From: Candidatus Omnitrophota bacterium
Lineage (GTDB): Bacteria; Omnitrophota; Gorgyraeia; Tantalellales; Tantalellaceae
DNA: 61,187 nucleotides
Assembly (NCBI GenBank): GCA_043822245.1
Contig: JBDRBY010000046.1
Span: forward strand, 1 to 61,187
Direction: 5' to 3'
This document shows positions 14,056 through 54,850 of the stretch, in pieces; position 1 is the first letter of the stretch; each line of letters begins with the position of its first letter. The notes under the pieces are model-generated. The model was not told the origin of the DNA, searched no databases, and worked only from the letters and a program-made list of their open reading frames with translations. The position numbers were made by a program, and so were the translations under genes.

Positions 14056-14089
14056 TCTCCCTTTGACAAAGGGAGATTAAGAGGGATTT
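14056..14089 (+). repeat. solo variant cap of the FEKG-type element family
   Basis: TCTCCCTTT-GAC-AAAGGGAGA hairpin followed by TTAAGAGGGATTT. Same variant as 33487-33524. Confidence 0.7.
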
Positions 14090-14095
14090 GCGTTT

Positions 14096-15547
14096 ATGAG
14101 TATGTATGATGTAACGATTATTGGCGCGGGGGTTGTGGGGACTTCAATCGCGCGGGAACTTTCCCGGTATAGACTGAAAGTCGCGCTTCTTGAAAAAGAA
14201 GAAGAGCTCGCTTTTGGAGTTTCAAAATCGAATAGCGGTATTATCCATCCGGGCACTCAAAATCCTCCGAATTCATTAAAAGGAAAACTGTGCGTTCAGG
14301 GAAACCTGCTTACGCGAAAACTAGCTAAAGAACTTGGCGTGGATTTCAAAGAAGTGGGGGAGTTGATAGTGGCGTTCTCGGACGAAGAAATTCCCGCCCT
14401 GCTTGAGTTAAAAGAAAGGGCGGAGGCGTTAAAGGTTCCGCGCCTCAGGATTGTTAACGCCGAATGGCTTAGAAAGAATGAGCCGAATCTCTCAAGTGAA
14501 GCCCGCGCGGTGCTTTACGCGCCAAGTGCCGGCATTATCAGCCCGTACCGGTTAGTATACGACCTTTGTGAAAATGCCGTAAAAAATGGGGTAAAGCTTT
14601 TTACGTCAGCACGTGTTGAAAATATCGCGGTGCCCCTAGTCTCAGCTTCCAAAAAACCGTATTTTGAAATTTTCACTTCAAAGGGTATATTTAAAACGCG
14701 GTATATCATTAACGCCGCGGGGCTTTTCGCGGACGAAATTTCGAGTATGGTTGGCGTGGGAGATTTTCAAATAAAGCCGCGCAAGGGTGAAGAATTTCTT
14801 TTAGATAAAAAAAGAGAAAATTTAACCAGGCATCTTATTTTCCCTTTGCCTTCAAAAAATTCAAAAGGTATTTTAGTTATTAAAACCGCTGACGGAAATC
14901 CGATGATTGGCCCGACCGCGGAAGAGGTAAAAGACAAATATGATTTGACGACCACGGATGAAGGTTTTCGCGAAGTGATTGCCGGGGCGCGGAAAATGAT
15001 ACCTTTGATAAACGCAAGCGATGTTATCGCTTATTTTGCGGGCCTGCGACCGGCGGCTGGTGAGGATTTTATTATTCGTCATGAAGATAAGGTGCCGGGG
15101 TTTGTAAATGTCGCGGGAATTCAGTCGCCGGGGTTAACGGCCGCGCCGGCCATAGCGTTGTTGGTCAAGAAAATATTAAAAAACAACGGCTTGAAAATGA
15201 AAAGAAAATTAAATTTTCATAAATACCGCAAAAAAACAGTTCACTTATTCTCGGCGGGGTTGTCAAAAACAAAGAAACTTGTTAAAGAAAATCCTGAATA
15301 CGGAGATATTGTCTGCAGATGCGAAATGGTTTCCGCAAAAGAGGTAAACGCCGCGATTGAACGGGGAGCGAGCACGCTCGACGGGATAAAGTTTAGGACC
15401 CGAGCCCAGGCAGGTAGGTGCCACGGCGGGTTTTGTACCACGCGGCTTATGAAAATTTTGGCTGAAAAAAAGAACCGCGCGGCCGTGGATATAACAAAAA
15501 GAGGCCGTGGGTCGGAAATTATTAAACAGGATAGGGCGAATGGTTGA
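14096..15547 (+). CDS. FAD-dependent glycerol-3-phosphate dehydrogenase/oxidase-type subunit with C-terminal BFD-like [2Fe-2S] domain
   Basis: The N-terminus DVTIIGAGVVGTSIAREL is a FAD dinucleotide fold. The C-terminal CRCEMVS..GRCHGGFC is a BFD-like cluster. Context is glpK plus oxidoreductase plus DUF1667, a known three-gene set in anaerobes. Confidence 0.8.
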   Translation: MSMYDVTIIGAGVVGTSIARELSRYRLKVALLEKEEELAFGVSKSNSGIIHPGTQNPPNSLKGKLCVQGNLLTRKLAKELGVDFKEVGELIVAFSDEEIPALLELKERAEALKVPRLRIVNAEWLRKNEPNLSSEARAVLYAPSAGIISPYRLVYDLCENAVKNGVKLFTSARVENIAVPLVSASKKPYFEIFTSKGIFKTRYIINAAGLFADEISSMVGVGDFQIKPRKGEEFLLDKKRENLTRHLIFPLPSKNSKGILVIKTADGNPMIGPTAEEVKDKYDLTTTDEGFREVIAGARKMIPLINASDVIAYFAGLRPAAGEDFIIRHEDKVPGFVNVAGIQSPGLTAAPAIALLVKKILKNNGLKMKRKLNFHKYRKKTVHLFSAGLSKTKKLVKENPEYGDIVCRCEMVSAKEVNAAIERGASTLDGIKFRTRAQAGRCHGGFCTTRLMKILAEKKNRAAVDITKRGRGSEIIKQDRANG

Positions 15548-16517
15548 ACGGGATTTAGTTATAGTAGGCGGCGGAAGCGCGGGAATGGCCGCGGCGATTT
15601 CCGCGCGTGAAAATGGTGTAAAAGATATTTTACTTTTGGAAAGGGATCAATATTTAGGCGGGTTATTGAATCAGTGTATACATACCGGCTTTGGTGTTGA
15701 TTATTTTAAAGAGGTTTTAACCGGGCCTGAATACGCGGATCGTTTTATAAAAAAACTTAAGGGTATAGAGCGGATAGAAATTAGTTTAAAGTCAATGGTG
15801 GCGCGGCTCACAAAGGATAAAGTGCTGACTTTTTTTAAACCCGGCAAAGTGATTGAATTAAAAGCAAAAGCGATAATTATGGCAACAGGGTGCCGGGAAA
15901 AAACCCGTGAGATGATACATATTGCGGGAACAAGGCCTGCCGGCGTGTATTCCGCGGGGCTGGCGCAAAAAATGATCAATATCGAAGGTTTTTTGCCGGG
16001 GAATGAAGTAGTAATTGCCGGCTCCGGAGATATCGGCCTGATTATGGCGCGGCGTTTTACTTTTGAGGGCGCCGAGGTGAAAGCGATTATTGAAATTCAA
16101 AAACAAACAAAAGGGCTCGCGCGAAACCTGATTCAGTGTGTGGAGGATTTTGACATACCGGTTTATTACAGTTACAAAATACTCAAGATTTATGGGAAAG
16201 GCAGGGTTGAAGGGGTTAGCGTGGTAAAGGTGGATGATGATTTTAACGAAGTGCCGAGTTCGATGTTTGAAATTAAGTGTGACACTGTTTTAATTTCCGT
16301 GGGGCTTGTCCCTGAAAATGAACTCATAGAAATGGCGGGAGTCGTGCTTGATGAAAAAACAAATACGCCCGTCTCGGATGATTTGAACAAGACATCAATC
16401 CATGGCCTTTTTGTATGCGGGAACGCTTTTAAGGTGTATGATCTTGTTGATTCGGTTTCAAAGGATAGCACCATCGCCGGCCGCCTCGCGGCGGAATACC
16501 TCAGGAGCATTACATGA
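15540..16517 (+). CDS. NAD(P)/FAD-dependent pyridine nucleotide-disulfide oxidoreductase
   Basis: Two dinucleotide folds, DLVIVGGGSAGMAAA and VVIAGSGDIGL. ATG 15540 overlaps the upstream stop (ATGGTTGA) and is preferred over GTG 15507. Confidence 0.8.
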   Translation: MVERDLVIVGGGSAGMAAAISARENGVKDILLLERDQYLGGLLNQCIHTGFGVDYFKEVLTGPEYADRFIKKLKGIERIEISLKSMVARLTKDKVLTFFKPGKVIELKAKAIIMATGCREKTREMIHIAGTRPAGVYSAGLAQKMINIEGFLPGNEVVIAGSGDIGLIMARRFTFEGAEVKAIIEIQKQTKGLARNLIQCVEDFDIPVYYSYKILKIYGKGRVEGVSVVKVDDDFNEVPSSMFEIKCDTVLISVGLVPENELIEMAGVVLDEKTNTPVSDDLNKTSIHGLFVCGNAFKVYDLVDSVSKDSTIAGRLAAEYLRSIT

Positions 16518-16882
16518 CGAAAACAATAATCTGTACTGAATGTCCCGAGGGATGTATCTTAGCTATAAACTCAGAAAACTATAAAGTAACAAAAGTCTCA
16601 GGGCATAAATGCCCTAAAGGTAAAAAATATGCCTCGGCAGAAATTGAAAATCCTGTTAGAATATTAACCTCAACGGTATTAACACAAGCTCTTTCCATAA
16701 AAATGGTACCGGTTAGAACAGATAAACCTATTCCGAAATTTATGATTTCAGAAGCGATGAAAGCTATAAAGGACATCAGGCTTGTTAACCCGGTTCAAAC
16801 GGGAGATGTGATTGCCGAAAACTTTTTAAGCCTTAATGTGAATTTAATCGCGAGTAGAGACGCCCCAGTGGAACGTCCATAG
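16514..16882 (+). CDS. DUF1667 domain protein
   Basis: IICTECPEGC......GHKCPKG..YA Cys pattern, ~120 aa. The start overlaps the upstream stop (ATGA). Confidence 0.75.
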   Translation: MTKTIICTECPEGCILAINSENYKVTKVSGHKCPKGKKYASAEIENPVRILTSTVLTQALSIKMVPVRTDKPIPKFMISEAMKAIKDIRLVNPVQTGDVIAENFLSLNVNLIASRDAPVERP

Positions 16883-16903
16883 AGACGTTTCCACAGTAAC
16901 CCT

Positions 16904-16931
16904 GTAGAGGCGCGATTTATCGCGTCTCCAC
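16904..16931. repeat. GTAG-prefixed palindrome (REP-like), paralogue of 6653-6680
   Basis: GTAGAGGCGCGATTTATCGCGTCTCCAC. A second hairpin GTGGAACGTC..GACGTTTCCAC at 16868-16894 contains the DUF1667 stop codon. Confidence 0.8.
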
Positions 16932-16951
16932 AACAAACAAAAGGAACCAAA

Positions 16952-17218
16952 ATGAAAGAAGACGTCCGAAGAAAATTTCATGATGTTTTGTGTTGTTTGC
17001 ATAAAATAACCATTCAGGCAGGTTCAAACGTAGAGAAGGCGAAAATAAAACGTGTTGAAGATATGAATGAAAATGAAATGAAAGAATTCCTTTTGCAGGC
17101 GTTAAAAACGCTAGCTTCTCTTGAAAAAACCGCTCTTGAAACTGGGATGGTTGTGGAAGACCTTAAAAAAAACGTTTATAAGAATCTTAAAATCGACAAT
17201 TCAGAGCCTCTTAAGTGA
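16952..17218 (+). CDS. hypothetical protein (88 aa)
   Basis: ATG with upstream AAAGGAA. Helical, charged sequence. The stop overlaps the next ORF. No family recognised. Confidence 0.4.
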   Translation: MKEDVRRKFHDVLCCLHKITIQAGSNVEKAKIKRVEDMNENEMKEFLLQALKTLASLEKTALETGMVVEDLKKNVYKNLKIDNSEPLK

Positions 17219-17235
17219 CGGGAAGGGAATACGGA

Positions 17236-18060: not shown

Positions 18061-18085
18061 CCGTGTATTGAAAATCAAAATAAAT

Positions 18086-18114
18086 TTGACAAAATCACAA
18101 AACAATGCGATACT
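18086..18114 (+). promoter_or_regulatory. sigma-70-like promoter P1
   Basis: TTGACA (18086-18091), 17 nt, GATACT (18109-18114). Confidence 0.35.
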
Positions 18115-18139
18115 ACTCGAAATTACAAAAACAGGCAAT

Positions 18140-18168
18140 TTGACATAAAAAAACAACTTTACAAATAT
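18140..18168 (+). promoter_or_regulatory. sigma-70-like promoter P2
   Basis: TTGACA (18140-18145), 17 nt, AAATAT (18163-18168). Reads toward the repeat array at 18252. Confidence 0.3.
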
Positions 18169-18251
18169 GAAGAGAGTGTGATATTGTCAAGGTTGGAATT
18201 CGATAGTGTCAAAAATAACATGAAAGAATTATGAAAGAAAGAGTGAAGTAG

Positions 18252-18460
18252 TTTCCCTTCTCTTTTTTGAAAAAAGGGCAGATCTTTTCCACCCTTTTGA
18301 AAAAGCGTCAGAACTTTTCTTCTTTGAAAAAGCGTCAGAACTTTTCGTCTTTGAAAAAGCGTCAGAACTTTCCTTCTTTGAAAAAGCGTCAGAACTTTTC
18401 TTCTTTGAAAAAGCGTCAGAACTTTCCCCCCTTTGAAAAAGGGGGCCAGGGGGATTTAAT
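18252..18460 (+). repeat. FEKG-type element: 27-bp tandem array plus (+) cap
   Basis: About 5 copies of TTTGAAAAAGCGTCAGAACTTTTCTTC plus 2 degenerate units. Ends in CCCCCCTTTGAAAAAGGGGGCCAGGGGGATTTAAT. Confidence 0.9.
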
Positions 18461-18534
18461 ACAAGATGAACTGTAAAATGAATCTGAAATCAAATGCATA
18501 TCGATTGTGGAGAGAAATGACAAAATCCCCCTAA
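18461..18534 (+). pseudogene. DUF559 5' remnant fused to a (-) cap
   Basis: The mini-ORF 18466-18534 reads MNCKMNLKSNAYRLWREMTKSP*. Compare the intact DUF559 N-terminus MLNYKPNLKSKAQQLRKEMTDS: 12 of 20 aligned residues match with a one-codon gap. It has the same ACA[AC]GATG junction after the (+) cap and the same TCCCCCTAA stop inside the (-) cap. Confidence 0.6.
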
Positions 18535-18553
18535 CCCCCTTTTCCAAAGGGGG
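18523..18553 (-). repeat. (-) cap of FEKG-type element
   Basis: AAAATCCCCCTAACCCCCTTTTCCAAAGGGGG is the reverse complement of the (+) cap consensus. Confidence 0.85.
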
Positions 18554-18666
18554 AATTTTAAGGGGGAGGGAAGTTAATATTAGATAACTGCTTTAGATGC
18601 AAAGGATTAAGAAAAATTTGGATACAAACTTTTGACAATACCTTGGAAAGGAGTGGGAGGTAAAGA

Positions 18667-19659: not shown

Positions 19660-19674
19660 TATCCAAACGCTAAT

Positions 19675-22209: not shown

Positions 22210-22220
22210 GGAATGAAAAA

Positions 22221-22243
22221 TTTAAAATGCAAAATGTAAAATT
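22221..22243. repeat. AT-rich 23-mer TTTAAAATGCAAAATGTAAAATT
   Basis: An identical 23-mer lies at 36393-36415. Confidence 0.85.
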
Positions 22244-22279
22244 ATAAAAGTAAAATTGTAATTTAAAAGGGAGAATTTT

Positions 22280-22816: not shown

Positions 22817-22819
22817 AAC

Positions 22820-23182: not shown

Positions 23183-23231
23183 CATTTAGTGAATAGTGGG
23201 TAGTGAATAGGGGGGGGGGGGGATAGTGAAG
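23173..23231. repeat. 14-bp-phased TAGTGAATAG repeats interrupted by a G13 homopolymer
   Basis: TAGTGAATAG at 23173, 23187 and 23201. G13 at 23210-23222. TAGTGAAG at 23224 contains the queC GTG start. The first copy contains the queD stop. Confidence 0.85.
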
Positions 23232-23882: not shown

Positions 23883-23937
23883 AGGTGAAGGTAAAGGGTT
23901 ACGCTCGGTATATAATTTCTAACTTTAAATTTTTTAT

Positions 23938-24627: not shown

Positions 24628-24656
24628 TAGAAATGAAAAACGCAAAATTCAAAACC

Positions 24657-24680
24657 GTATGGCAAAGGCACGCCTTTGCC
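24657..24680. repeat. REP-like hairpin GTATGGCAAAGG-CACG-CCTTTGCC
   Basis: GGCAAAGGCACGCCTTTGCCGATA is identical to 56404-56427. Confidence 0.8.
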
Positions 24681-24697: not shown

Positions 24698-25090
24698 ATG
24701 AAAAAGAATTATGAAGGGCTTCAGGAAAATGTCAGGAAGTTAAAATTTCCTAAAATAGATGTTTGGGAGAATAAGTATCAGGACAGAAGGTATGTGGTGA
24801 AGTTTGATACGTCTGAGTTTACGTGCATATGCCCTAAGACGGGCCTTCCGGATTTCGCGCGTATTTTTATAGAATATTCTCCCCGCGAATGGTGCATTGA
24901 ATTAAAATCGTTCAAAGAGTATATAGTTTCTTACAGAGACCGCGGAATGTTTCACGAGCATGTTGTTAACCGAATGATTCAGGATCTCGCGGAAGCCTGC
25001 CTGCCTTTTTGGATAAACATAAGGGGGGTTTTTAACACGCGCGGTGGGATTACGACGACTGTGGAGGCGGGGATAGGGGATAGGGGATAG
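24698..25090 (+). CDS. queF: NADPH-dependent 7-cyano-7-deazaguanine reductase (YkvM type)
   Basis: EFTCICPKTGLPDFA and EHVVNRM (QueF motif region); 130 aa. Confidence 0.9.
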   Translation: MKKNYEGLQENVRKLKFPKIDVWENKYQDRRYVVKFDTSEFTCICPKTGLPDFARIFIEYSPREWCIELKSFKEYIVSYRDRGMFHEHVVNRMIQDLAEACLPFWINIRGVFNTRGGITTTVEAGIGDRG

Positions 25091-25096
25091 GGAATA
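25069..25096. repeat. 4 x 7-bp tandem GGGGATA
   Basis: GGGGATA GGGGATA GGGGATA GGGAATA spans the queF stop (25088-25090) and ends 2 nt before GTG 25099. Confidence 0.85.
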
Positions 25097-25098
25097 GG

Positions 25099-25986
25099 GT
25101 GAAGATAAAAACTCGGAGATATTACATATATTACGCGTCAAAAATTTTGTTCTTTGCGATAAGTTTAATTCCGCGTAAAATAAGCCTTGTTATCGCGGAT
25201 TTCTTAGGCAGAAAAGCTTTCTCGTTGCTTCCAAAATATCGAGATATAACAATATCGAATTTGAATGAGGCGTTTGGCGGTGATCATGAAAAAAATTTAC
25301 GCATGGCAAGGGATGTTTTTCGCGGCCTCGCGAAAAGCGGCGCTGATTGGATAAAATTAATGTCTCTTGGCAAAAAAGGCGCTCTTCGGCTTGTAAGCGA
25401 ATGTCAGGGGCTGGAATATCTGGATAAGACTTTAGGAAACGAGAGAGGCGCGATTCTTCTTGCTTCTCATTTTGGCAATTGGGAACTTTTGTCCGCGTAT
25501 CTTTCAACAAGAGGATACAAAGGCGCAATAATAGTAAGAAGGCTGTACTTTTATAAGTATGACAATTTTATAGTAAGGCTGAGGCGGAAGTTCGGTGTGC
25601 AGGTTGTATATCGAGATGAATCACCGAAAAAATTATTAAAAGTGCTTAAAAAAGGCGAAATGTTGGGGATTTTGGCGGATCAGGATGTTGACAGTACAAG
25701 CGGTGTATTTGTGAATTTTTTTGGGAAGAGCGCGTACACGCCCACGGCGCCGGTAAAATTCGCTATGGCCGCGAGAGTAGATATAGTACCGGCTTTCATG
25801 ATACGTAAGCCGGATGATTCTTATAAGTTGGTAGTAGAAAAACCGATTACCCTGTTACCGGAGAAAGATAAGGCAGAGAGTGTGCGAAAGTATACTCAGC
25901 TTTGGACAGATATTCTTGAGAAATATGTGAGGCAATATCCTGAGCAATGGGTATGGTTGCATAGAAGGTGGAAGACTGAGAAATAA
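25099..25986 (+). CDS. lipid A (Kdo2-lipid IVA) late acyltransferase, LpxL/HtrB family (GTG start)
   Basis: N-terminal TM segment. LLASHFGNWELLS is the HtrB-family H(x4)E-type motif region, plus ILADQD. 295 aa in LPS gene context. Confidence 0.75.
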   Translation: MKIKTRRYYIYYASKILFFAISLIPRKISLVIADFLGRKAFSLLPKYRDITISNLNEAFGGDHEKNLRMARDVFRGLAKSGADWIKLMSLGKKGALRLVSECQGLEYLDKTLGNERGAILLASHFGNWELLSAYLSTRGYKGAIIVRRLYFYKYDNFIVRLRRKFGVQVVYRDESPKKLLKVLKKGEMLGILADQDVDSTSGVFVNFFGKSAYTPTAPVKFAMAARVDIVPAFMIRKPDDSYKLVVEKPITLLPEKDKAESVRKYTQLWTDILEKYVRQYPEQWVWLHRRWKTEK

Positions 25987-27693: not shown

Positions 27694-27728
27694 AAAAAAT
27701 CCCCCTACCCCCTTTTTCAAAGTGGGGG
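27694..27728 (-). repeat. solo (-) cap of FEKG-type element
   Basis: AAAAAATCCCCCTACCCCCTTTTTCAAAGTGGGGG. Confidence 0.8.
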
Positions 27729-30194: not shown

Positions 30195-30240
30195 CACGCA
30201 GTGATATACGCTAAGGTAGTATCAAAGGAAGCAAAAAAAA

Positions 30241-30443
30241 GGATACAAAATTGTTTCCCCCCTTTGAAAAAGGGGGAAAAAGGTAAGTTTCTTTATCGTT
30301 TCCACTTTGTGAAAAAGGGGGAAAAAGGTAAGTTTCTTTATCGTTTCCACTTTGTGAAAAAGGGCGCAAAATTGTTTACTTCTTTTGAAAAAGGATACAA
30401 AATTGTTTCCCCCCTTTGAAAAAGGGGGATAGGGGGATTTAAC
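30241..30443 (+). repeat. FEKG-type element: mixed 31/45-bp units plus (+) cap
   Basis: GGATACAAAATTGTTTCCCCCCTTTGAAAAA units at both ends. Two 45-bp units (period 30271 to 30316). Ends in GGGGGATAGGGGGATTTAAC. Confidence 0.9.
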
Positions 30444-30482
30444 GCGCGAGCCGTCACGAAGAAAAAACAGCCAACATCGAAA

Positions 30483-30569
30483 GAGGGCTACGGAGTGGAC
30501 ATAGAAGCAAATTTTGCGGATATAAGTTCAGAAATGAAAATGATTTGTAAGGTGGTGGAGAGAAAATAA
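30483..30569 (+). pseudogene. DUF559 3' remnant between (+) and (-) caps
   Basis: 30519-30566 matches the 3' end of the intact DUF559 gene at about 35 of 48 nt by eye. Translation ADISSEMKMICKVVERK* compares with RDTDSVMEVIYKVVEGKIKSP*. It is joined to the (-) cap in the same way. Confidence 0.6.
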
Positions 30570-30650
30570 ATCCCCCTAGCCCCCTTTTTCAAAGGGGGGA
30601 AAAGATAAGCCTTTTTTCAAAAGGGGGAGAAAGATAAGCTTTTTCAAGGG
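30568..30650 (-). repeat. (-) cap plus 2 array units
   Basis: AAATCCCCCTAGCCCCCTTTTTCAAAGGGGGG AAAAGATAAGCCTTTTTTCAAAAGGGGGAG AAAGATAAGCTTTTTCAAGGG. Confidence 0.85.
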
Positions 30651-33486: not shown

Positions 33487-33524
33487 TTCTCCCTTTGAAA
33501 AAGGGAGTTTAAGAGGGATTTAAC
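33487..33524 (+). repeat. variant (+) cap
   Basis: TTCTCCCTTTGAAAAAGGGAGTTTAAGAGGGATTTAAC. A (-) cap follows 12 nt later. Confidence 0.8.
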
Positions 33525-33536
33525 GGGTATTTAAAC

Positions 33537-33706
33537 AAAAATCCCCCTAACCCCCTTTTTCAAAGGGGGGAGCAACGAAGCCCTTTTTCAAAGGGGGGAG
33601 CAACGAAGCCCTTTTTCAAAGGGGGGAGCAACGAAGCCCTTTTTCAAAGGGGGGAGCAACGAAGTCCTTTTTCAAAGGGGGGAGCAACGAAGTCCTTTTT
33701 TTCAGG
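33537..33706 (-). repeat. (-) cap plus 28-bp tandem array
   Basis: AAAAATCCCCCTAACCCC, then 5 copies of CTTTTTCAAAGGGGGGAGCAACGAAG[CT]C plus a degenerate unit. Confidence 0.9.
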
Positions 33707-35068: not shown

Positions 35069-36511
<1,443 letters not shown>

Positions 36512-38717: not shown

Positions 38718-38793
38718 GGAATAGAAATTCCCTTTCTTCTGAAAAAGGAATAGGAAATTCCCCCCTTTGAAAAAGGGGGCTAGGGGGATTTAA
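38718..38793 (+). repeat. FEKG-type element: 2 units plus (+) cap
   Basis: GGAATAGAAATTCCCTTTCTTCTGAAAAA GGAATAGGAAATTCCCCCCTTTGAAAAAGGGGGCTAGGGGGATTTAA. Confidence 0.9.
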
Positions 38794-41068: not shown

Positions 41069-42112
41069 ATGAAACGTAGAAACACACGAACAATTACGGT
41101 AGGCAAATTAAAAATCGGGTCAAAACATCCTGTGAGCATCCAGTCTATGCTGAAGACGGATATTTCCGATATTTGTTCCGCGATTGCCGAAGCGCGCGCG
41201 TTGGAAGAGGCCGGATGCGAACTTATACGCGTGGCAGTTAAAGAAAAAAAAATACTTGAAACTTTGCCCGTTCTTAAGCAAAACATAAATATTCCTATCT
41301 GCGCGGATATACATTTCGATTATAAACTTGCCGTTGAAGCGATAGAGCGGGGCGCGGACAAGATAAGAATAAACCCGGGCAATATTAAAAAACCGAAAGA
41401 AATTCGCGCGATAATTGATTGCGCGAAAGAAAATAAAATACCGATAAGGATAGGGATAAACTCAGGGTCCACCGGCAGTACCAAGAGCAGTGGTATGGTA
41501 AAGTCGCTCCTGGAATATCTAGCCCATTTTGAACGCGAAAATTTTCATAACATCATTATCTCTATCAAATCTTCCGACGTAAAAACAACTGTTGACGCGT
41601 ATAGAAAAATGGCGTTAAGATGCGATTATCCCTTTCATCTCGGCCTTACCTCTACCGGGCCGGTTTCTCGAGGAAAAGTGAAATCGAGCATATGTATAGG
41701 TGCTCTTTTGTTGGACGGGATAGGCGATACTATAAGGGTTTCTTTAACCGCGGGATCAAAAGAAGAGGTAGCTTCGGCCAAGGATATACTCAGCGCGTTG
41801 GATATTAGAAACTTCGGCCCTAAGATAATATCCTGCCCCACATGTGGCAGATGCCAAGTTAATTTAGTTTCAATTGTCAATGAATTATCGGATATCCTCC
41901 AACGATCAACGGCCAACGGCCAACGGCCAACGACTATAGCAGTTATGGGATGCGAAGTTAACGGCCCCGGTGAGGCGAAACACGCGGATATAGGGATAGC
42001 CTTTGGCAAAGGCAAAGGCGCGATATTCCGCGAAGGTAAGATAATAAAGACAGTAAAAGCAATCGACGCGGTAAAAGAAATAATGTCGGAAATTAAAAAT
42101 TTTTCATTTTAG
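41069..42112 (+). CDS. ispG: 4-hydroxy-3-methylbut-2-en-1-yl diphosphate synthase
   Basis: VSIQSM, RINPGN and the C-terminal CPTCGRC....MGCEVNGPGE cluster motif; 347 aa. Confidence 0.95.
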   Translation: MKRRNTRTITVGKLKIGSKHPVSIQSMLKTDISDICSAIAEARALEEAGCELIRVAVKEKKILETLPVLKQNINIPICADIHFDYKLAVEAIERGADKIRINPGNIKKPKEIRAIIDCAKENKIPIRIGINSGSTGSTKSSGMVKSLLEYLAHFERENFHNIIISIKSSDVKTTVDAYRKMALRCDYPFHLGLTSTGPVSRGKVKSSICIGALLLDGIGDTIRVSLTAGSKEEVASAKDILSALDIRNFGPKIISCPTCGRCQVNLVSIVNELSDILQRSTANGQRPTTIAVMGCEVNGPGEAKHADIGIAFGKGKGAIFREGKIIKTVKAIDAVKEIMSEIKNFSF

Positions 42113-45366: not shown

Positions 45367-45422
45367 TCTTCCGTAACGAGCGCCGAGCGACGAAAGACAA
45401 GCGACGAACAAAGAGGTGTTTA

Positions 45423-47774: not shown

Positions 47775-47776
47775 AA

Positions 47777-48763: not shown

Positions 48764-48772
48764 ATAAATACC

Positions 48773-49549
48773 ATGTCCTACAAAGTAAAACTTAACATTT
48801 TTGAGGGGCCGTTAGATCTTCTGCTGTTTCTTATCAAAAAAGAAAAAATTGATATTTATGATATTCCTATCGCTTCGGTTACTGATCAGTATTTGGAATA
48901 TATGAATTTGATAAAACTCCTGGATTTGGATATTGCCGGTGAATTTCTTGTAATGGCCGCGACTTTGATACATATAAAAAGCAAAATGCTTCTGCCTCAG
49001 GACGAAGTTGTTGAGGAAGAAGAAGAGCGGGATCCCAGGGAAGAGCTTATCGAGAGGCTCCTCGAATATAAGAAATATAAGGACGCGGCTGAAAAATTAA
49101 AGGATTTGAAGGAAAGAAATAAAGATATATTTTTCAGGCAGGTTCCCCCTGATAAAACTTCGATAATAGCCGAAGACGGAACAGAGTATTTTCAGGCGAG
49201 TTTGTTTGAACTCATTACCGCTTTCAAAGGGGTACTTAAGAAAGTTCAAAAAAAATCTGTTCATAGAGTCACGAAAAATAGATTTACTGTTGAGGATAAG
49301 ATTCACGCGGTGTATCATATTTTCGCGAAGCAGGAAAAAATTTATTTTTTATCGTTATTTCAGCAAGCTGAAGATAAAGATGAGGCAATAGTTATATTCC
49401 TGGCGGTATTAGAGCTCATAAAAAGGAGAGAAGTGCTTATCGCCCAAAAAGGCCTTTTTGAAGAAATTGAAATTATTAGAAATCCGGAATTGGTCCATAG
49501 TCTGGCGTATAGCGTTAGCGAGGAAAGGAACCCCGTTTCCCCCCTTTGA
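48773..49549 (+). CDS. scpA: segregation and condensation protein A
   Basis: FEGPLDLLLFLIKKEKIDIYDIPIA..TDQYL is the ScpA signature N-terminus. The last ~9 codons and stop lie in the repeat array. Confidence 0.9.
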   Translation: MSYKVKLNIFEGPLDLLLFLIKKEKIDIYDIPIASVTDQYLEYMNLIKLLDLDIAGEFLVMAATLIHIKSKMLLPQDEVVEEEEERDPREELIERLLEYKKYKDAAEKLKDLKERNKDIFFRQVPPDKTSIIAEDGTEYFQASLFELITAFKGVLKKVQKKSVHRVTKNRFTVEDKIHAVYHIFAKQEKIYFLSLFQQAEDKDEAIVIFLAVLELIKRREVLIAQKGLFEEIEIIRNPELVHSLAYSVSEERNPVSPL

Positions 49550-49693
49550 AAAAGGAAAGGACCCTGTTCCCCCCTTTGAAAAAGGAAAGGACCCTGTTCC
49601 CCCCTTTGAAAAAGGAAAGGACCCTGTTCCCCCCTTTGAAAAAGGAAAGGACCCTGTTCCCCCCTTTGAAAAAGGGGGCTAGGGGGATTTAAT
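49522..49693 (+). repeat. FEKG-type element: 30-bp tandem array (5 units) plus (+) cap
   Basis: GGAAAGGACCCTGTTCCCCCCTTTGAAAAA x4 plus one variant. Ends in GGGGGCTAGGGGGATTTAAT. Confidence 0.9.
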
Positions 49694-49781
49694 CCAAGCA
49701 TCCCCCATCGCTTCGCGAATCAAAGTGCCGGGGGCGGCAAAGCAGTTTTATTAATAGTCAAAATATTAACACGGTGCCCAT

Positions 49782-50330: not shown

Positions 50331-50344
50331 TGGTTTACGCGTTC

Positions 50345-50443
50345 AAAAATCCCCCTAGCCCCCTTTTTCAAAGGGGGGACAAAATTGAAAGAGGAAAGGA
50401 ACCCGTTCCCCCCTTTGGAAAAAGGGGGCTAGGGGGATTTAAT
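50345..50443. repeat. complete FEKG-type element: (-) cap, one unit, (+) cap
   Basis: AAAAATCCCCCTAGCCCCCTTTTTCAAAGGGGGG ... GGAAAGGAACCCGTTCCCCCCTTTGGAAAAAGGGGGCTAGGGGGATTTAAT, with ~32-bp terminal inverted repeats. Confidence 0.9.
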
Positions 50444-50492
50444 AAAGACAGCCAAAGTTCCCCCACAACCGCGGTTTAAACAGGAGCTAAGA

Positions 50493-51566: not shown

Positions 51567-51575
51567 AAGTTAGAA

Positions 51576-51630
51576 GAAAAAGGAAGGAACCCATTCCCCC
51601 CTTTGAAAAAGGGGGCTAGGGGGATTTAAT
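51576..51630 (+). repeat. FEKG-type element: one unit plus (+) cap
   Basis: GAAAAAGGAAGGAACCCATTCCCCCCTTTGAAAAAGGGGGCTAGGGGGATTTAAT. An unrelated 9-bp-stem hairpin GACACATTT..AAATGTGTC follows at 51631-51661. Confidence 0.9.
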
Positions 51631-51763
51631 GACACATTTAAGGTATTACCTCAAATGTGTCAGAATGAAAAATTAAAAAACACAATTAAAAATCTAAAAA
51701 TTGATTTTTAATTTTAAATTGTAACTTTACATTTTTCATTTTTAATTGTACATTTACAAAACC

Positions 51764-52852
51764 ATGTGCAAAAAACATCTAAACAACATAAAACCGTACA
51801 AGCAGGGTAAACCCATTGAAGAAGTAAAACGCGAACTTGGGCTTAAAAAGGTTATAAAACTCGCTTCAAATGAAAGCCCCCGCCCTCCTTCAAAAAAAAC
51901 AATAGAGGCGATTAAGAAGCAGGCCGCGTCAGTAAACCGATACCCGGATGGGGGGTGTTTTTATCTCAGAGAGGCTTTGAGCAAGAAACTCTCTATTCCT
52001 GGAGACAATATTGTTTTTGGAAACGGGTCTGATGAGATTATTATCTTAGCGCTTCAAGCCTTCGTTAAGCCCGGTGACGAAGTTATTACGGCAAATCCCA
52101 CGTTTCTTGTTTACGGCATAGCCTCTATGGTAAAAGGCGCGCGGGTCCGCGAAGTTCCCCTGAAAAATTACAAATACGATCTTGAAGCCATGCTTAAGGC
52201 TGTTACCCGAAGGACCAGGGTTGTATTTATTGCCAATCCCGATAATCCCACAGGGACATATGTGACAAAAAAAGAATTGGATTTGTTTTTAAAAAATGTT
52301 CCGCGGGATATACTCGTTTTTATTGATGAAGCATATTATGAATTCGCGAGGGGCGGCGATTATCCTGAAACTTTGAGCCTGATTAAAACAGGAAACCGTA
52401 ACATTATAATCGCGAGGACTTTTTCTAAAGCCTACGGCCTTGCCGGATTAAGAATCGGCTACGGCCTCGCGGGGAAAGATATAGCTGATATCCTAAACAA
52501 GGTGAGAGAACCGTTTAATGTGAATTCTCTCGCGCAGACAGCGGCAATCGCGGCTCTGAGTGACGATTCTTACATGGAAGAGACGATAAAATTTATCAAG
52601 GAAGAAAAGGAAAAATATTGCGGTGTATTTAAATCATTAAACGTGGGATATCTTCCAAGTAAAGCTAATTTCATTCTTATAAACACAAAAAGGGATTCAA
52701 AAGAAATTTTTAACCGTCTCCTCGCGAAAGGAATTATCGTGCGGGAAATGTCGGAGTGGGGGCTCGATGGATTTATAAGAGTAACCATAGGCCTCCCGGA
52801 TGAGAATAAAGCGTTTTTTAAGGCGTTTAGAGAGATTGTTGCCAAAGTGTGA
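51764..52852 (+). CDS. hisC: histidinol-phosphate / aromatic aminotransferase (class II)
   Basis: LASNESP, GNGSDE, PDNPTG and FSKAYGLAGLRIGY (PLP lysine). ATG 51764 is preferred over TTG 51746. Confidence 0.85.
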   Translation: MCKKHLNNIKPYKQGKPIEEVKRELGLKKVIKLASNESPRPPSKKTIEAIKKQAASVNRYPDGGCFYLREALSKKLSIPGDNIVFGNGSDEIIILALQAFVKPGDEVITANPTFLVYGIASMVKGARVREVPLKNYKYDLEAMLKAVTRRTRVVFIANPDNPTGTYVTKKELDLFLKNVPRDILVFIDEAYYEFARGGDYPETLSLIKTGNRNIIIARTFSKAYGLAGLRIGYGLAGKDIADILNKVREPFNVNSLAQTAAIAALSDDSYMEETIKFIKEEKEKYCGVFKSLNVGYLPSKANFILINTKRDSKEIFNRLLAKGIIVREMSEWGLDGFIRVTIGLPDENKAFFKAFREIVAKV

Positions 52853-52854
52853 GG

Positions 52855-53130
52855 AAAAAATCCCCCTAACCCCCTTTTTCAAAGGGGGGACAGAATTGAA
52901 AAAGGAGTGGAAACATTTCCCTTCCACTCTTTGAAAAAGGAGTGGAAACATTTCACTTTTACCATTTGAAAAAGGAGTGTAAACATTTTCCTTCCACTCT
53001 TTGAAAAAGGAGTGTAAACATTTTCCTTCCACTCTTTGAAAAAGGAGTGTAAACATTTTCCTTCCACTCTTTGAAAAAGGAGTGTAAACATTTCCCCCCT
53101 TTGAAAAAGGGGGGCGAGGGGGGATTTAAC
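52855..53130. repeat. complete FEKG-type element, 35-bp units x6
   Basis: (-) cap, ACAGAATTGAAAAA, GGAGTG[GT]AAACATTT..CCACTCTTTGAAAAA units, then (+) cap CCCCCCTTTGAAAAAGGGGGGCGAGGGGGGATTTAAC. Confidence 0.9.
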
Positions 53131-53135
53131 ACACG

Positions 53136-53504
53136 ATGTTAAATTACAAACCAAACTTAAAATCAAAGGCTCAGCAATTACGAAAAGAAATGACCGACAG
53201 TGAAAGAAAACTATGGTCAAGATTGAGAGGAAAGCAAATTTTAGATGTTCAATTTTACCGGCAGAAGCCCATTGGAAATTATGTCGTGGATTTTTACGCG
53301 TCCAAAGTGAAAATAGTGGTTGAAGTGGATGGATCTGGGCACATGGAGGAAGGGCAGGCGCTAAAGGATGCACCACGAGATGAATATTTAAAACGTCAGG
53401 GATTAGATGTGTTACGTTTTGATAATTTGCAGGTTTTGCGGGATACGGATTCGGTAATGGAAGTGATTTATAAGGTGGTGGAAGGGAAGATTAAATCCCC
53501 CTAA
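53136..53504 (+). CDS. DUF559 (Vsr-like / PD-(D/E)XK-type) endonuclease domain protein
   Basis: LRKEMTDSERKLWSRLRGKQILDVQFYRQKPIGNYVVDFYASKVKIVVEVDGSGH....D..RDEYLKRQGLDVLRFDN matches the DUF559 pattern (LR.nmT.aE..LW..LR....kFrRQ.piG.YivDFyc...klviElDG..H). 122 aa. Confidence 0.9.
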   Translation: MLNYKPNLKSKAQQLRKEMTDSERKLWSRLRGKQILDVQFYRQKPIGNYVVDFYASKVKIVVEVDGSGHMEEGQALKDAPRDEYLKRQGLDVLRFDNLQVLRDTDSVMEVIYKVVEGKIKSP

Positions 53505-53660
53505 CCCCCTTTTTCAAAGGGGGGACAGAATTGAAAAAGGAGTGGAAACATTTCACTTTTACCATTTGAAAAAGGAGTGTAAACATTTTCCTTCCACTCT
53601 TTGAAAAAGGAGTGTAAACATTTCCCCCCTTTGAAAAAGGGGGGCGAGGGGGGATTTAAC
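53491..53660. repeat. complete FEKG-type element, 35-bp units x3 (paralogue of 52855-53130)
   Basis: Same caps, same linker and same unit types as the left copy. Its first 14 nt encode the last 4 codons and stop of DUF559. Confidence 0.9.
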
Positions 53661-53697
53661 TCCCCCCTCCCTAAAAAAAAACAACACAGGAGAAATT

Positions 53698-54714
53698 ATG
53701 ATTATCGTTCTGAAATCTTCCGCTACTAAAAAACAGATAAGCCACATTATAGAAAAGATAGAAAAACTGGGGCTTAAGCCATGGTTGTCCTGTGGCGTGG
53801 AACGTTCAATTATCGGCGTAATTGGAGAAGAACAGGTTGTAAGGACTCTGCCGCTTGAGGGATTCCCAGGGGTAGAAAAGGTTATGACAATTCTTAAGCC
53901 GTACAAACTGGCGTCTCTTGATTATAAAAGCACTCCCAGTGAAATAAAAATAGCAGATGGCGTGACTATTGGCGGCAAAAAAATAGTTGTCATGGCCGGC
54001 CCGTGTTCTGTTGAGAACAGAGCGATGCTGATGGAAACGGCCGAAGAAGTAAAAAAATCCGGAGCTGTATTTTTAAGAGGCGGCGCGTTTAAGCCAAGAA
54101 CAAGCCCGTATAGTTTTCAAGGTCTGGGGGAGGAAGGCCTGAAATATTTGAGGGAAGCCGGAAAAAAAACAGGCCTTCTTGTTGTGACGGAACTAATGGA
54201 TATTCGTATGCTTGGAATGATGGTTAAATACGCGGACATCATACAGGTAGGCGCGCGTAATATGCAAAATTTTGATCTTTTAAAAGAACTCGGCAAGATA
54301 AGAAAACCCGTGCTTTTAAAAAGAGGAATAGCCAACACTATAAATGAATTTCTTATGAGCGCTGAATACATTCTCGCGGGCGGGAACGACAACGTGATTT
54401 TGTGTGAACGTGGCATCCGGACCTTTGAAACTTTTACCAGATTCACGCTTGATTTAAACGCTGTCGCCGCCATAAAAAGTTTAAGCCATCTTCCTATTAT
54501 CGTTGATCCGTCTCATGGGACAGGCAGGTGGAATTTAGTGCTTCCGGCGGCCTTAGCCGCGGTTGCTTCCGGTGCCGACGGGCTTATGATAGAGGTCCAT
54601 CCTAATCCGGAAGAAGCGTTTTCCGACGGGGATCAATCGTTGCTCCCGGCTAAGTTCGCGAAACTGATGGAAGGCGTAAAAACCGTCGCGAAAGCAGTTG
54701 GGAGGACAGTTTAA
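53698..54714 (+). CDS. aroF: 3-deoxy-7-phosphoheptulonate (DAHP) synthase, type I-beta with N-terminal regulatory domain
   Basis: MIIVLK...I..I..KI...G (ferredoxin-like N-domain), then [41 protein letters not shown] and DPSHG motifs. 338 aa. Confidence 0.9.
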
Positions 54715-54850
54715 TAATCCCCCTAACCCCCTTTTTCAAAGGGGGGAAAGAACTGAGATAAAGAGGAAAGGGCGAGAAGTTTCCCCACTTTGAAAAAGGA
54801 AATGGACCCGTTTCCACCCTTTGAAAAAGGGTGGCTAGGGGGGATTTAAT
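54715..54850. repeat. complete FEKG-type element: (-) cap, 2-3 units, (+) cap
   Basis: TAATAATCCCCCTAACCCCCTTTTTCAAAGGGGGG ... GGAAATGGACCCGTTTCCACCCTTTGAAAAAGGGTGGCTAGGGGGGATTTAAT. Confidence 0.9.

What the first reader, a model, noticed from the sequence alone, without database searches (positions are those of the whole stretch)
14056..54850. Pervasive intergenic element family: locus-specific tandem units around a constant CTTTGAAAAAG hairpin, closed by a conserved ~34-bp cap
At least 13 loci carry the family: 14056, 18252, 18523, 27694, 30241, 30568, 33487, 33537, 38718, 49522, 50345, 51576, 52855, 53491 and 54715. All are intergenic and lie between housekeeping genes. The constant parts are the core C(C)CTTTGAAAAAGG(G), with stem CCCTTT/AAAGGG and loop GAA, and the terminal cap CCCCCCTTTGAAAAAGGGGG-CTA-GGGGGATTTAA. 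The cap occurs in both orientations. Complete elements (50345-50443, 52855-53130, 53491-53660, 54715-54850) therefore have ~32-bp terminal inverted repeats. Between the caps, the unit sequence and period differ by locus: 27 bp at 18252, 31/45 bp at 30241, 28 bp at 33537, ~30 bp at 38718 and 49522, and 35 bp at 52855. Within one locus the units are homogeneous. The variable part often carries its own short palindrome (GGAAT..ATTCC, GGAAC..GTTCC, GGAGTGG..CCACTC). This combination fits neither CRISPR, classic REP/BIME nor ordinary MITEs as I know them.
Basis: seen in the sequence. Interest (0 to 1): 0.78.

Follow-up and report, generated by a model that had tools for sequence, protein, structure and literature searches.

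The report
Triplex-motif repeats flanking a DUF559 nuclease gene
The repeated "cap" is a BoxC-like, triplex-forming DNA motif, a repeat class known for 30 years with no known origin, and here and in more than ten other bacterial phyla it forms the two inverted ends of a tiny cassette encoding a DUF559 endonuclease, which may be the enzyme that spreads such repeats.

Summary
The core CTTTGAAAAAG occurs 35 times against 0.15 expected. There are 19 full caps, in both orientations, and homogeneous tandem arrays of 27-45 bp.

1. The cap has the C-stem / loop / G-stem / 3-nt loop / mirror G-stem build of BoxC/PIT/TMECO intrastrand-triplex motifs, a known orphan repeat class.
2. Window 53136-53504 is an intact DUF559 (Vsr-fold) endonuclease gene bracketed by inverted caps. 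One cap supplies its ribosome-binding site and the other its stop codon. A clear internally deleted copy lies at 18460-18528, and a probable one at 30443-30565.
3. The same cap-gene-cap unit occurs in Omnitrophota, Beta-, Delta- and Gammaproteobacteria. The exact cap occurs in at least 12 phyla. The closest syntenic relatives (80-88% identity) have none.

Distant DUF559 genes carry their own triplex-type motifs at their flanks: E. coli ycjD plus six other lineages. E. coli genomes with ycjD carry about three to four times more TMECO copies.

Best reading: a selfish nuclease cassette with gene-less derivatives. The arrays are slippage or repair products beside the structured cap. The nuclease's role in spreading the repeats is inferred, not shown.

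The parts
53136..53504 (+). Intact DUF559 (Vsr-fold PD-(D/E)xK) endonuclease gene, 122 aa. This is the only protein encoded by the family.
   Evidence: Pfam PF04480, E = 5.9e-36. PDB 3HRL, E = 4.8e-19. AlphaFold2 pLDDT 87.6; nearest folds are 3HRL and homing endonuclease I-Bth0305I. The invariant residues D52, E63, D65 and H69 are kept.
53093..53129 (+). R-cap directly upstream of the DUF559 gene. Its second G-run sits about 13 nt before the ATG and serves as the ribosome-binding site.
53491..53525 (-). L-cap overlapping the 3' end of the DUF559 gene. The gene reads ...KIKSP* into AAATCCCCCTAA, so its stop codon is the cap's 3-nt loop.
52856..53129 (.). Upstream module: L-cap (52856-52890), 35-bp array x5.7 (52896-53096), R-cap.
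   Evidence: It is a near-identical direct repeat of 53491-53659, including the unusual GGGGGGCGAGGGGGG cap.
53491..53659 (.). Downstream module: L-cap, 35-bp array x2.7 (53531-53624), R-cap (53623-53659).
   Evidence: Contig L105 carries the same gene with 4 units instead of 3.
18252..18459 (+). Diverged units, then a 27-bp array x5.4 (18296-18441) ending in the R-cap (18425-18459).
18460..18528 (+). Internally deleted DUF559 remnant. The mini-frame ...NLKSNAYRLWREMTKSP* is the first ~22 codons fused to the last 3.
   Evidence: tblastn. Family HMM positions 3-22, E = 0.004. Alignment by eye to L088/L094.
18522..18556 (-). L-cap closing the deleted cassette.
30224..30442 (+). Arrays (45 bp x2.4 and 31 bp x2.7) ending in the R-cap (30408-30442).
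30443..30565 (+). Probable heavily decayed DUF559 remnant between the R and L caps (..GYKFRNE.., ..MKMICKVVERK*).
   Evidence: Only weak, colinear HMM traces, E about 3-4. Tentative.
30566..30649 (-). L-cap (30566-30600) and L-side 28-bp array x2.1.
33487..33700 (.). Variant R-cap (CTCCC/GGGAG/GAGGG, 33487-23), 13-bp spacer, L-cap (33537-71), then L-side 28-bp array x5.3. This is an 'empty' R-s-L pair.
14055..14090 (+). Solo variant R-cap (CTCCC / GGGAG / mirror GAGGG) between glpK and a glpD-like gene.
27695..27727 (-). Solo L-cap.
38718..38793 (+). Two units plus the R-cap (38759-38793) between cdsA and dxr.
49521..49692 (+). 30-bp array x5.1 plus the R-cap (49658-49692) between scpA and scpB. 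The scpA frame runs into the array.
50345..50442 (.). L-x-R doublet between scpB and pheA.
51576..51629 (+). One unit plus the R-cap after pheA.
54716..54849 (.). L-x-R doublet with two units between DAHP synthase and prephenate dehydrogenase. The R-cap stem carries the compensatory change CCACCC/GGGTGG.

Best explanation
The cap is a BoxC/PIT/TMECO-type motif with potential to form an intrastrand triplex. Its parts are a C-stem, a 9-nt loop centred on a GNA triloop, a G-stem, a 3-nt loop (T/C)TA, and a mirror G-stem followed by ATTT.

Two caps in inverted orientation form the ends of a small selfish cassette whose only gene is a DUF559 (Vsr-fold) endonuclease. The cassette sits in operon spacers, co-oriented with host genes, and is expressed by read-through. 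The upstream cap gives the ribosome-binding site and the downstream cap gives the stop codon.

The cassette decays by internal deletion into R-remnant-L and R-s-L pairs. L-x-R doublets and single caps accumulate as gene-less derivatives.

Inferred mechanism: the nuclease recognises the folded or palindromic cap and nicks or cuts there. Repair that copies from another cap-bearing locus spreads the gene and caps, in a homing or gene-conversion manner analogous to RAYT acting on REP/REPIN.

The structured cap also stalls replication or repair synthesis. Slippage between neighbouring direct copies of the loop core (TTGAAAAAGG) then amplifies 'core plus adjacent ~15-25 bp' into locally homogeneous arrays that differ between loci.

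Shown: the motif architecture, the gene-cap linkage across phyla, the insertion status and the decay series.
Inferred: that DUF559 acts on the caps, and the slippage origin of the arrays.
For: Cap-gene-cap linkage
- It is present in the window.
- It is present in all other loci examined with DUF559 at 60% identity or more: Omnitrophota L004 and L094, Betaproteobacteria L106, Deltaproteobacteria L109, L111 (GC 67%) and L112.
- It is present in the 44%-identity genes of Cellvibrio and Thalassocella.
- Database homologues carry cap-encoded N- and C-terminal extensions, including one that reads through an array.
- Homologues sit mostly on 0.5-1.5 kb contigs, as expected for repeats that break assemblies.

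Mobility and horizontal transfer
- The exact cap occurs in at least 12 phyla, in hosts of 31-70% GC.
- Gene GC is below host GC in 8 of 8 loci.
- Syntenic relatives L194 (88% identity) and L195 (80%), and 80 further loci, have no caps. The aminotransferase and DAHP synthase genes overlap by 4 bp in L194, where the window has 845 bp.
- There is one intact copy plus one clear remnant (18460-18528) and one tentative remnant (30443-30565) in 61 kb.

Triplex class
- The architecture matches that in PMC4666352.
- Asymmetric variants have mirror-symmetric G stems: GGGAG..GAGGG, GGAGGG..GGGAGG, and in Neisseria GGGAGAGAG..GAGAGAGGG.
- Loop 1 is GNA in 214 of 221 caps.

Generality
- E. coli TMECO #9 lies 170 bp from ycjD, which is a DUF559 gene.
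- Six of six distant DUF559 genes are flanked by lineage-specific triplex-type motifs.
- In an even-step sample of 5,426 E. coli genomes, 37 with ycjD have a median of 16 other TMECO-like places. Twenty-two without it have a median of 3.5.

Fold
- The nearest characterised structure is homing endonuclease I-Bth0305I. R2 RLE, TnsA and Vsr are also listed.
Against: - No cleavage or binding data exist for any DUF559 protein.
- A 120-aa metal nuclease cannot by itself carry out strand transfer.
- No target-site duplication or clean empty site was found.
- Only about 12 of 104 cap loci have a DUF559 frame within 8 kb.
- The arrangement differs between lineages: R-gene-L here; L-gene-R in Synechocystis and Deinococcus; direct copies in Neisseria.
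- E. coli O157:H7 lacks ycjD yet keeps about 12 TMECOs. The E. coli correlation is not corrected for phylogeny.
- Holder et al. did not detect triplex formation in vivo or in duplex DNA.
- Most of the comparative data are MAGs or short-read assemblies, in which repeats can be collapsed or chimeric.
Confidence: 0.55

Rival explanations
1. The caps are self-propagating structural repeats, spread by replication or repair accidents at non-B DNA or by some unidentified enzyme. DUF559 is only a passenger. Either it is a gene that tends to be captured between caps, or it is a host repair nuclease that processes such structures and is kept next to them.
For: - Caps greatly outnumber genes.
- Holder et al. 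found no mobility genes near TMECOs and proposed replication slippage and repair errors.
- E. coli O157:H7, which lacks ycjD, still has about 12 TMECOs.
- Cap orientation around the gene varies between lineages.
Against: - The gene and caps are fused at nucleotide resolution in several phyla. The ribosome-binding site lies inside one cap and the stop codon inside the other.
- Each DUF559 clade has its own cognate motif sequence.
- The gene travels with the caps into hosts of very different GC content.
- Gene-bearing units are multi-copy and decay like selfish genes.
Confidence: 0.25
2. The elements are maintained mainly for an RNA-level host function in operons. The doublets would act as stable hairpins that protect upstream mRNA, attenuate read-through or uncouple translation, as proposed for REP/BIME, Correia and BOX elements.
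For: - They lie between co-transcribed genes.
- Doublets fold very stably (z = -7.4).
- Array units resemble terminators on the antisense strand.
- Stem changes are sometimes compensatory: CTCCC/GGGAG x7 and CACCC/GGGTG x1.
Against: - The closest relatives run the same operons without them, with overlapping genes.
- Mirror, not complementary, covariation of the third stem points to DNA. Purine-motif triplexes do not form in RNA (PMC4666352).
- PIT elements showed no promoter or terminator activity.
- No U-tract follows the hairpin on the sense strand.
- There is no Rfam match.
Confidence: 0.1
3. The arrays and caps are assembly or polishing artefacts, or a CRISPR-like array system.
For: The window is probably a MAG contig. 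Repeats are hard to assemble. L105 differs in unit number.
Against: - The same cap occurs in over 100 independent assemblies, including complete chromosomes and isolate genomes.
- Array units are whole-unit repeats with no unique spacers.
- No cas genes were found among the genes scanned.
Confidence: 0.03

Closest known systems
BoxC / PIT elements / TMECO intrastrand-triplex motifs of E. coli and other bacteria (Bergler 1992; Hoyne & Maher 2000; Holder et al. 2015, PMC4666352)
   Same: - Three-block architecture: C-stem, loop, G-stem, 3-nt loop (TTA in type A), second G-stem that mirrors the first.
- Length about 35 nt, intergenic, in both orientations.
- Often found as inverted pairs that combine two loop types.
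- Associated with local instability, and very widely distributed.
- E. coli TMECO #9 also sits beside a DUF559 gene (ycjD).
   Different: - The stems are C5/G5, not CCCTCNCCC/GGGNGAGGG.
- Loop 1 is 9 nt and A/T-rich (TTT-GNA-AAA), not 3-6 nt.
- There is a conserved ATTT(AA) tail.
- There are long tandem arrays beside the motif.
- The published work reports no linked gene and states that no mobility functions were found. The DUF559 linkage was not found in any paper searched.
REP / REPIN populations and their RAYT (TnpA-REP) genes
   Same: - A single small nuclease-type gene is flanked by inverted copies of a short structured repeat.
- The repeat is otherwise present in many gene-less copies as singlets, inverted doublets and clusters in intergenic spacers.
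- The repeat sequence is specific to the protein clade.
   Different: - The protein is a PD-(D/E)xK Vsr-fold nuclease (PF04480), not a Y1 HUH transposase.
- The repeat has three stems and triplex potential rather than being a simple palindrome with a GTAG foot.
- This cap-gene pair crosses phyla, whereas RAYT/REP pairs are thought to be vertically inherited (from memory).
Vsr-like (EDxHD) homing endonucleases such as I-Bth0305I (PDB 3R3P)
   Same: - It is the nearest characterised fold (TM 0.78-0.80 on the target).
- It is a small selfish nuclease gene with presence/absence polymorphism between colinear genomes, and it decays by deletion.
   Different: - I-Bth0305I is intron-encoded with extra DNA-binding regions.
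- Here the gene is free-standing in operon spacers, is bounded by structured inverted repeats, and leaves many gene-less repeat copies.
- No target site is defined.
Pneumococcal BOX elements (boxA-boxB(n)-boxC) and E. coli BIME-2 clusters
   Same: Modular intergenic elements in which end modules bracket a variable number of tandem internal units.
   Different: - The sequences are unrelated.
- In BOX the internal unit is the same genome-wide, whereas here it differs between loci.
- No gene is linked to BOX.

Membership tests
BoxC/PIT/TMECO-type intrastrand triplex motifs (class) | [quoted passage not shown] | tested here: met
   CCCCC-TTTGAAAAA-GGGGG-(T/C)TA-GGGGG in 19 window caps and 242 caps overall. 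Pattern definition from PMC4666352.
BoxC/PIT/TMECO-type intrastrand triplex motifs (class) | The second G stem is the mirror image of the first (purine-motif triads), not its complement or a direct copy | tested here: met
   Asymmetric variants: GGGAG..GAGGG (7 copies, including window 14055 and 33487) and L016 GGAGGG..GGGAGG. Distant lineages (Neisseria, Azospirillum, Photobacterium, Deinococcus) are also mirror-symmetric. There is one counter-example, L031.
BoxC/PIT/TMECO-type intrastrand triplex motifs (class) | Intergenic, in both orientations, with inverted pairs that combine two loop-2 types | tested here: met
   11 R and 8 L caps. L is mostly TTA; R is mostly CTA, CGA, CCA or ATA. In Cellvibrio a C5-type cap pairs with a CCCTCCC-type cap that has a CCG-like loop.
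BoxC/PIT/TMECO-type intrastrand triplex motifs (class) | The single strand actually folds into a triplex | not testable with these tools
   Needs CD, NMR or footprinting. The folding tool models hairpins only.
TMECO sensu stricto (E. coli consensus) | Matches CCCTCNCCC N3-6 GGGNGAGGG N3 GGGNGAGGG | tested here: not met
   The stems are C5/G5 and loop 1 is 9 nt. There is no blastn match of the window element in 5,426 E. coli genomes.
REP/REPIN-RAYT system | The associated gene is a RAYT (Y1 HUH transposase) | tested here: not met
   The flanked gene is PF04480 DUF559.
REP/REPIN-RAYT system | A short structured repeat, as singlets and inverted doublets, flanks its own gene in inverted orientation | tested here: met
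MITE derived from an insertion sequence | Terminal inverted repeats plus target-site duplication, and a related autonomous element encoding a transposase | tested here: not met
   Inverted repeats are present. No duplication is seen at 10 or more junctions. The gene-bearing form encodes only DUF559. No transposase was found among the flanking genes scanned.
Homing endonuclease gene | A nuclease of a fold used by homing endonucleases, with presence/absence between colinear genomes | tested here: met
   Foldseek gives 3R3P I-Bth0305I. The gene is absent from syntenic L194, L195 and L114-L125.
Homing endonuclease gene | The enzyme cleaves the gene-less allele at the insertion site | not testable with these tools
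   Needs biochemistry. R-s-L pairs (window 33487-33571; L036, L064, L029) are candidate targets.
CRISPR array | Identical repeats alternating with unique spacers, and adjacent cas genes | tested here: not met
   Whole units repeat at 92-99% identity with no unique spacers. The neighbouring genes are housekeeping genes.
Vsr very-short-patch repair endonuclease (PF03852) | Member of the Vsr family proper, usually next to a dcm-type methyltransferase | tested here: not met
   Pfam assigns DUF559, not Vsr. The fold match to 1VSR is only TM about 0.45. The neighbours are aromatic amino-acid genes.

The most novel reading that the evidence does not exclude
DUF559 proteins are the long-missing cognate nucleases of BoxC/PIT/TMECO-type triplex repeats throughout Bacteria. 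This would be a RAYT-like but mechanistically distinct system. A Vsr-fold nuclease would recognise a folded three-stem DNA motif and drive its spread, and its own spread, by break-induced copying. One cap-gene lineage would have crossed at least 12 phyla.
Probability: 0.4. Interest if true: 0.88.

Novelty: new variant of a known kind. Interest (0 to 1): 0.75.

Why it matters
BoxC/PIT/TMECO motifs have been known since the early 1990s. They occur in hundreds of genomes and mark rearrangement hotspots. Yet the most detailed study states that no mobility function was ever found near them.

DUF559 is one of the commonest bacterial domains of unknown function. It includes E. coli YcjD and a solved Neisseria structure.

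A consistent, nucleotide-precise linkage between the two makes two old questions testable with simple experiments: what spreads these repeats, and what DUF559 does. The linkage is seen here from Omnitrophota to E. coli, Neisseria, Deinococcus and cyanobacteria.

It would also explain three other things:
- a frequent cause of contig breaks in metagenome assemblies;
- spurious 'PPFSKGG'-type reading frames;
- a source of variable-number tandem arrays inside operons.

Tried and rejected
- **Intrinsic terminators.** No T-tract follows the hairpin on the sense strand. Terminator-like hits lie only on the antisense strand.
- **Known RNA family.** Rfam gathering thresholds give only 16S rRNA. The E-value mode gives only chance miRNA-like hairpin hits.
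- **CRISPR.** There are no unique spacers.
- **Phage vector.** The cap pattern and the DUF559 gene have 0 hits in IMG/VR. Plasmid records hold only relatives below 60% identity.
- **Alternative pairing or direct-repeat reading of the second G-run.** Rejected in favour of mirror symmetry.
- **Vsr-site idea** (CTAGG/CCAGG in loop 2). Loop 2 is YTA-biased but also GTA and GCA, so this stays speculation.
- **Target-site duplications.** None were seen.
- **Exact-protein look-ups for the window's own genome.** These gave only one 669-bp contig.
- **JGI metagenome scan for close relatives.** It gave identity of 70% or less. Closer relatives came from the protein search.
- **Clean empty site in E. coli.** Strain Nissle lacks ycjD and TMECO #9, but the region is rearranged rather than precisely empty.
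- **The 30443-30565 remnant.** It is only weakly supported.
- **MAFFT alignment A1.** It contained mis-specified sequences and was not used.

Full report
**1.
- The 11-mer CTTTGAAAAAG occurs 35 times in 61 kb, against 0.15 expected.
- A profile built from caps found elsewhere detects 19 full-length caps in the window, 11 on the + strand ('R') and 8 on the - strand ('L').
- R caps read CCCCCC-TTTGAAAAA-GGGGG-CTA-GGGGG-ATTTAA. L caps are mostly the reverse complement of ...GGGGG-TTA-GGGGG-ATTTTT.
- The neighbouring genes are ordinary housekeeping genes on the + strand.
- The host is a Candidatus Omnitrophota bacterium, judged from the named best hits of its DAHP synthase.

**2. A gene sits inside the family.**
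- Window 53136-53504 encodes a 122-aa DUF559 protein (PF04480, E = 5.9e-36).
- It matches PDB 3HRL from Neisseria gonorrhoeae at E = 5e-19.
- The R-cap at 53093-53129 ends 8 nt before its ATG, and the cap's G-run is the only Shine-Dalgarno-like sequence there.
- The gene reads ...KIKSP* into the L-cap at 53491-53525, so the TAA of the cap's 3-nt loop is its stop codon.
- The gene-bearing unit is therefore R-cap / gene / L-cap, with the hairpins outermost.
- Both phases exist. The gene is flanked on each side by an L-array-R module. The two modules are near-identical direct repeats that differ in unit number, 5.7 against 2.7.
- Window 18425-18556 is R-cap / 70 bp / L-cap. The 70 bp read ...NLKSNAYRLWREMTKSP*, which is the first ~22 codons fused to the last three.
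- Window 30408-30600 is a similar pair around about 120 bp, with only faint colinear traces of the gene.
- Window 33487-33571 is an R-s-L pair with a 13-bp centre.
- This is a decay series of the kind seen for selfish genes.

**3. The unit is not local.**
- The taxa include Omnitrophota, Myxococcota, Gammaproteobacteria, Gallionella, Nitrospirales, Nitrospinota and Elusimicrobia.
  - The Gammaproteobacteria are Cellvibrio, Thalassocella, two Lysobacter isolates, Acinetobacter bouvetii and Methylococcaceae.
  - The Nitrospirales hits are two complete chromosomes.
- They also include Ignavibacteria/Kapaibacterium, Bacteroidota, 'Clostridia' MAGs, Desulfobacterota and Patescibacteria.
- Host GC ranges from 31% to 70%.
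- The window protein has 2,215 database relatives. The best are 60-78% identical and sit mostly on 0.5-1.5 kb contigs, the signature of a repeat that breaks assemblies.
- Every context I fetched shows the R-cap just upstream and the L-cap at or over the stop codon. These are a betaproteobacterium, a deltaproteobacterium, a 67%-GC contig where the gene sits between addB and addA, and a 42%-GC contig.
- The Omnitrophota loci L004 and L094, and the 44%-identity genes of Cellvibrio and Thalassocella, show the same arrangement.
- In all of them the gene is co-oriented with the host operon.
- Many database homologues carry N-terminal extensions such as SPFEKGGYGDLF or C-terminal ones such as KSPQPPFSKGE, which are translated caps. 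One reads through three upstream array units.
- Gene GC is below host GC in 8 of 8 loci, for example 0.49 against 0.69.

**4. The elements are insertions.**
- The two closest relatives I could find have DAHP synthase at 88% and 80% identity (L194, L195).
- Both keep the order rimP-nusA-infB-trpS-scpA-scpB-pheA-aminotransferase-DAHP synthase-prephenate dehydrogenase-cmk-plsC-rpsA.
- They have no cap and no DUF559 across 15-18 kb.
- In L194 the aminotransferase and DAHP synthase genes overlap by 4 bp. The window has 845 bp at that junction.
- Eighty further metagenome loci at 51-70% identity also lack caps.

**5. The cap belongs to a known class.**
- While checking E. coli's DUF559 gene ycjD, I found G/C-rich motifs of the same build around it.
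- A literature search led to Holder et al. 2015 (PMC4666352).
- BoxC/PIT/'TMECO' motifs are CCCTCNCCC-N3-6-GGGNGAGGG-N3-GGGNGAGGG. The second loop is TTA (type A) or CCG (type B).
- There are 23 copies in MG1655, always intergenic. Five inverted pairs always combine A with B.
- The motifs form a purine-motif intrastrand triplex in vitro as single strands, and they mark hypervariable loci.
- The test that separates a triplex motif from a plain hairpin is whether the second G-run mirrors the first. It does in the asymmetric variants:
  - GGGAG..GAGGG, 7 copies including window 14055 and 33487;
  - GGAGGG..GGGAGG in L016;
  - GGGAGAGAG..GAGAGAGGG in Neisseria.
- There is one counter-example.
- Loop 1 is centred on a GNA triloop in 214 of 221 caps.
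- Hairpin stems show two kinds of compensatory change, CTCCC/GGGAG and CACCC/GGGTG, against about 14 single mismatches.
- The cap does not match the TMECO consensus itself and has no blastn match in E. coli. It is therefore a new sequence family of a known class.

**6. The DUF559 link appears general and unreported.**
[quoted passage not shown] They do not mention ycjD, DUF559 or any endonuclease.
- Yet their TMECO #9 (1,351,239-1,351,204) lies 170 bp downstream of ycjD (1,351,407-1,351,760) on the same strand.
- ycjD itself ends ...RRSPSP* inside a degenerate motif and is followed by a partial duplicate of its own 3' end.
- I took six DUF559 genes at 39-45% identity, chosen only by tblastn rank: N. 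gonorrhoeae, a Synechocystis plasmid, Photobacterium, Azospirillum, Sinorhizobium and Deinococcus.
- All have lineage-specific G/C-rich motifs of this kind within about 100 bp, usually on both sides.
- The Neisseria flank recurs 11-14 times in the chromosome.
- ycjD is present in 3,378 of 5,426 complete E. coli genomes.
- In an even-step sample, 37 genomes with ycjD have a median of 16 other TMECO-like places (range 8-26). Twenty-two without it have a median of 3.5 (range 1-14).
- The Mann-Whitney p is 1e-9, not corrected for phylogeny. O157:H7 lacks ycjD but keeps about 12 TMECOs.
- No paper in the searchable library links DUF559 with these repeats or contains the cap sequence. Subscription literature could not be searched.

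**7. The protein.**
- Residues D52, E63, D65 and H69, together with R16, E23, W27, R81 and R94, are invariant across 15 sequences from seven lineages.
- The AlphaFold2 model has pLDDT 87.6.
- Its best structural matches are 3HRL and then the catalytic domain of homing endonuclease I-Bth0305I (TM 0.78-0.80 on the target).
- PvuRts1I, the R2 retrotransposon endonuclease, TnsA, Vsr (TM about 0.45) and Hjc rank lower.
- The fold is thus one repeatedly used by mobile elements. No activity is known for DUF559 itself.

**8. The arrays.**
- Arrays always lie on the hairpin side of a cap, seven on R sides and two on L sides.
- Each unit is the loop core (C)CTTTGAAAAAG(G) plus 15-35 bp.
- Older, diverged units lie distal to the cap.
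- The sequence just after L hairpins already contains a half-core (ACAGAA-TTGAAAAAGG). So two direct copies of about 10 bp sit 20-35 bp apart, which is the substrate for slipped-strand duplication.
- The same is seen in other phyla: L034, L050, L074, L078 and the P0040 extension.
- In L106 the G5-NN-G5ATTT part is tripled instead.
- The arrays alone do not fold unusually well (z = -0.9).
- Unit number differs between the two window modules and contig L105, at 6, 3 and 4 units.
- I read the arrays as by-products of stalling or breakage at the structured cap. This is consistent with the instability Holder et al. measured. It is inference.

**9. Mechanism and rivals.**
- *Best supported (0.55):* a selfish DUF559 cassette whose inverted triplex-motif ends are its cis sites. 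Gene-less derivatives are spread or maintained in trans by nuclease-induced breaks and templated repair.
- The main weaknesses are:
  - no biochemistry;
  - no target-site duplication or clean empty site;
  - variable cap orientation between lineages;
  - many cap loci with no gene nearby.
- *Passenger or repair-nuclease rival (0.25):* it explains the excess of caps, but not the nucleotide-level fusion of gene and caps or the clade-specific motif sequences.
- *RNA-level function rival (0.1):* it is weakened by the cap-free operons in the closest relatives and by the mirror covariation.
- *Artefact or CRISPR rival:* excluded for practical purposes.

**10. Verdict.**
- It is a new, phylogenetically very widespread sequence family of BoxC/TMECO-type triplex repeats.
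- To my searches it is the first case that ties this orphan repeat class to a specific gene family.

Noticed in passing
window 22212-22269, 36384-36414, 25069-25099, 41899-41932, 23187-23230; L194 and L195 operon spacers; L025, L026, L044, L050, L086: Heptamer tandem repeats fill many intergenic spacers: AATGTAA-like, GGGGATA x4.4 and CCAACGG x4.9. The related Omnitrophota contigs carry different heptamers (ACGCTAT, TACACGT, AACCGGC) at the same operon junctions. Several MAGs have heptamer arrays right next to caps. This is reminiscent of cyanobacterial STRR repeats.
   Followed up: no
The profile detects it only weakly.
   Followed up: partly
window 48773-49549 vs L194:5873-6700: The scpA reading frame runs 8 codons into the 30-bp array (..YSVSEERNPVSPL*). 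The relative stops at ..YSVSG*. The insertion therefore replaced the native stop codon.
   Followed up: partly
window 18214-18260; L011, L070, L089, L095: A conserved A/T-rich stretch (TAGTGTCAAAAA..ATGAAAGAA..ATGAAAAG) precedes some R-caps in different MAGs. It may be an older array or a promoter-like part of the element.
   Followed up: no
L002, L009, L015, L020, L066, L072, L081, L087 (Myxococcota MAG MO_167.B37): In this genome the cap is embedded in a longer conserved element (...GCTATGTCAAAC...cap...TCAAATAC...ATTGACGA). This suggests a lineage-specific composite repeat.
   Followed up: no
L196:4240-4420 (E. coli K-12, downstream of ycjD) and L199 (Photobacterium): In both, the 3' end of the DUF559 gene together with its downstream motif is partly duplicated in tandem. 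This is the same kind of local duplication that produces the arrays in the window.
   Followed up: partly
L194:7243-7456: The closest relative has a different palindromic repeat (GGGGTCAGACCTC...GAGGTCTGACCCC, units x3) in the scpB-pheA spacer, where the window has a cap doublet. The same operon junctions appear to be colonised by different repeat families.
   Followed up: no
window 617-680: A 25-bp direct repeat x2 (TAAGTATTGTGTCCCCCGAATTACA) is followed by a 12-bp sub-repeat. It is unrelated to the cap family.
   Followed up: no
window 1630-6552 and 9732-11330: There is a 1,640-aa open reading frame, and the only sizeable minus-strand gene in an otherwise strictly co-oriented 61-kb stretch. 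Neither was examined.
   Followed up: no
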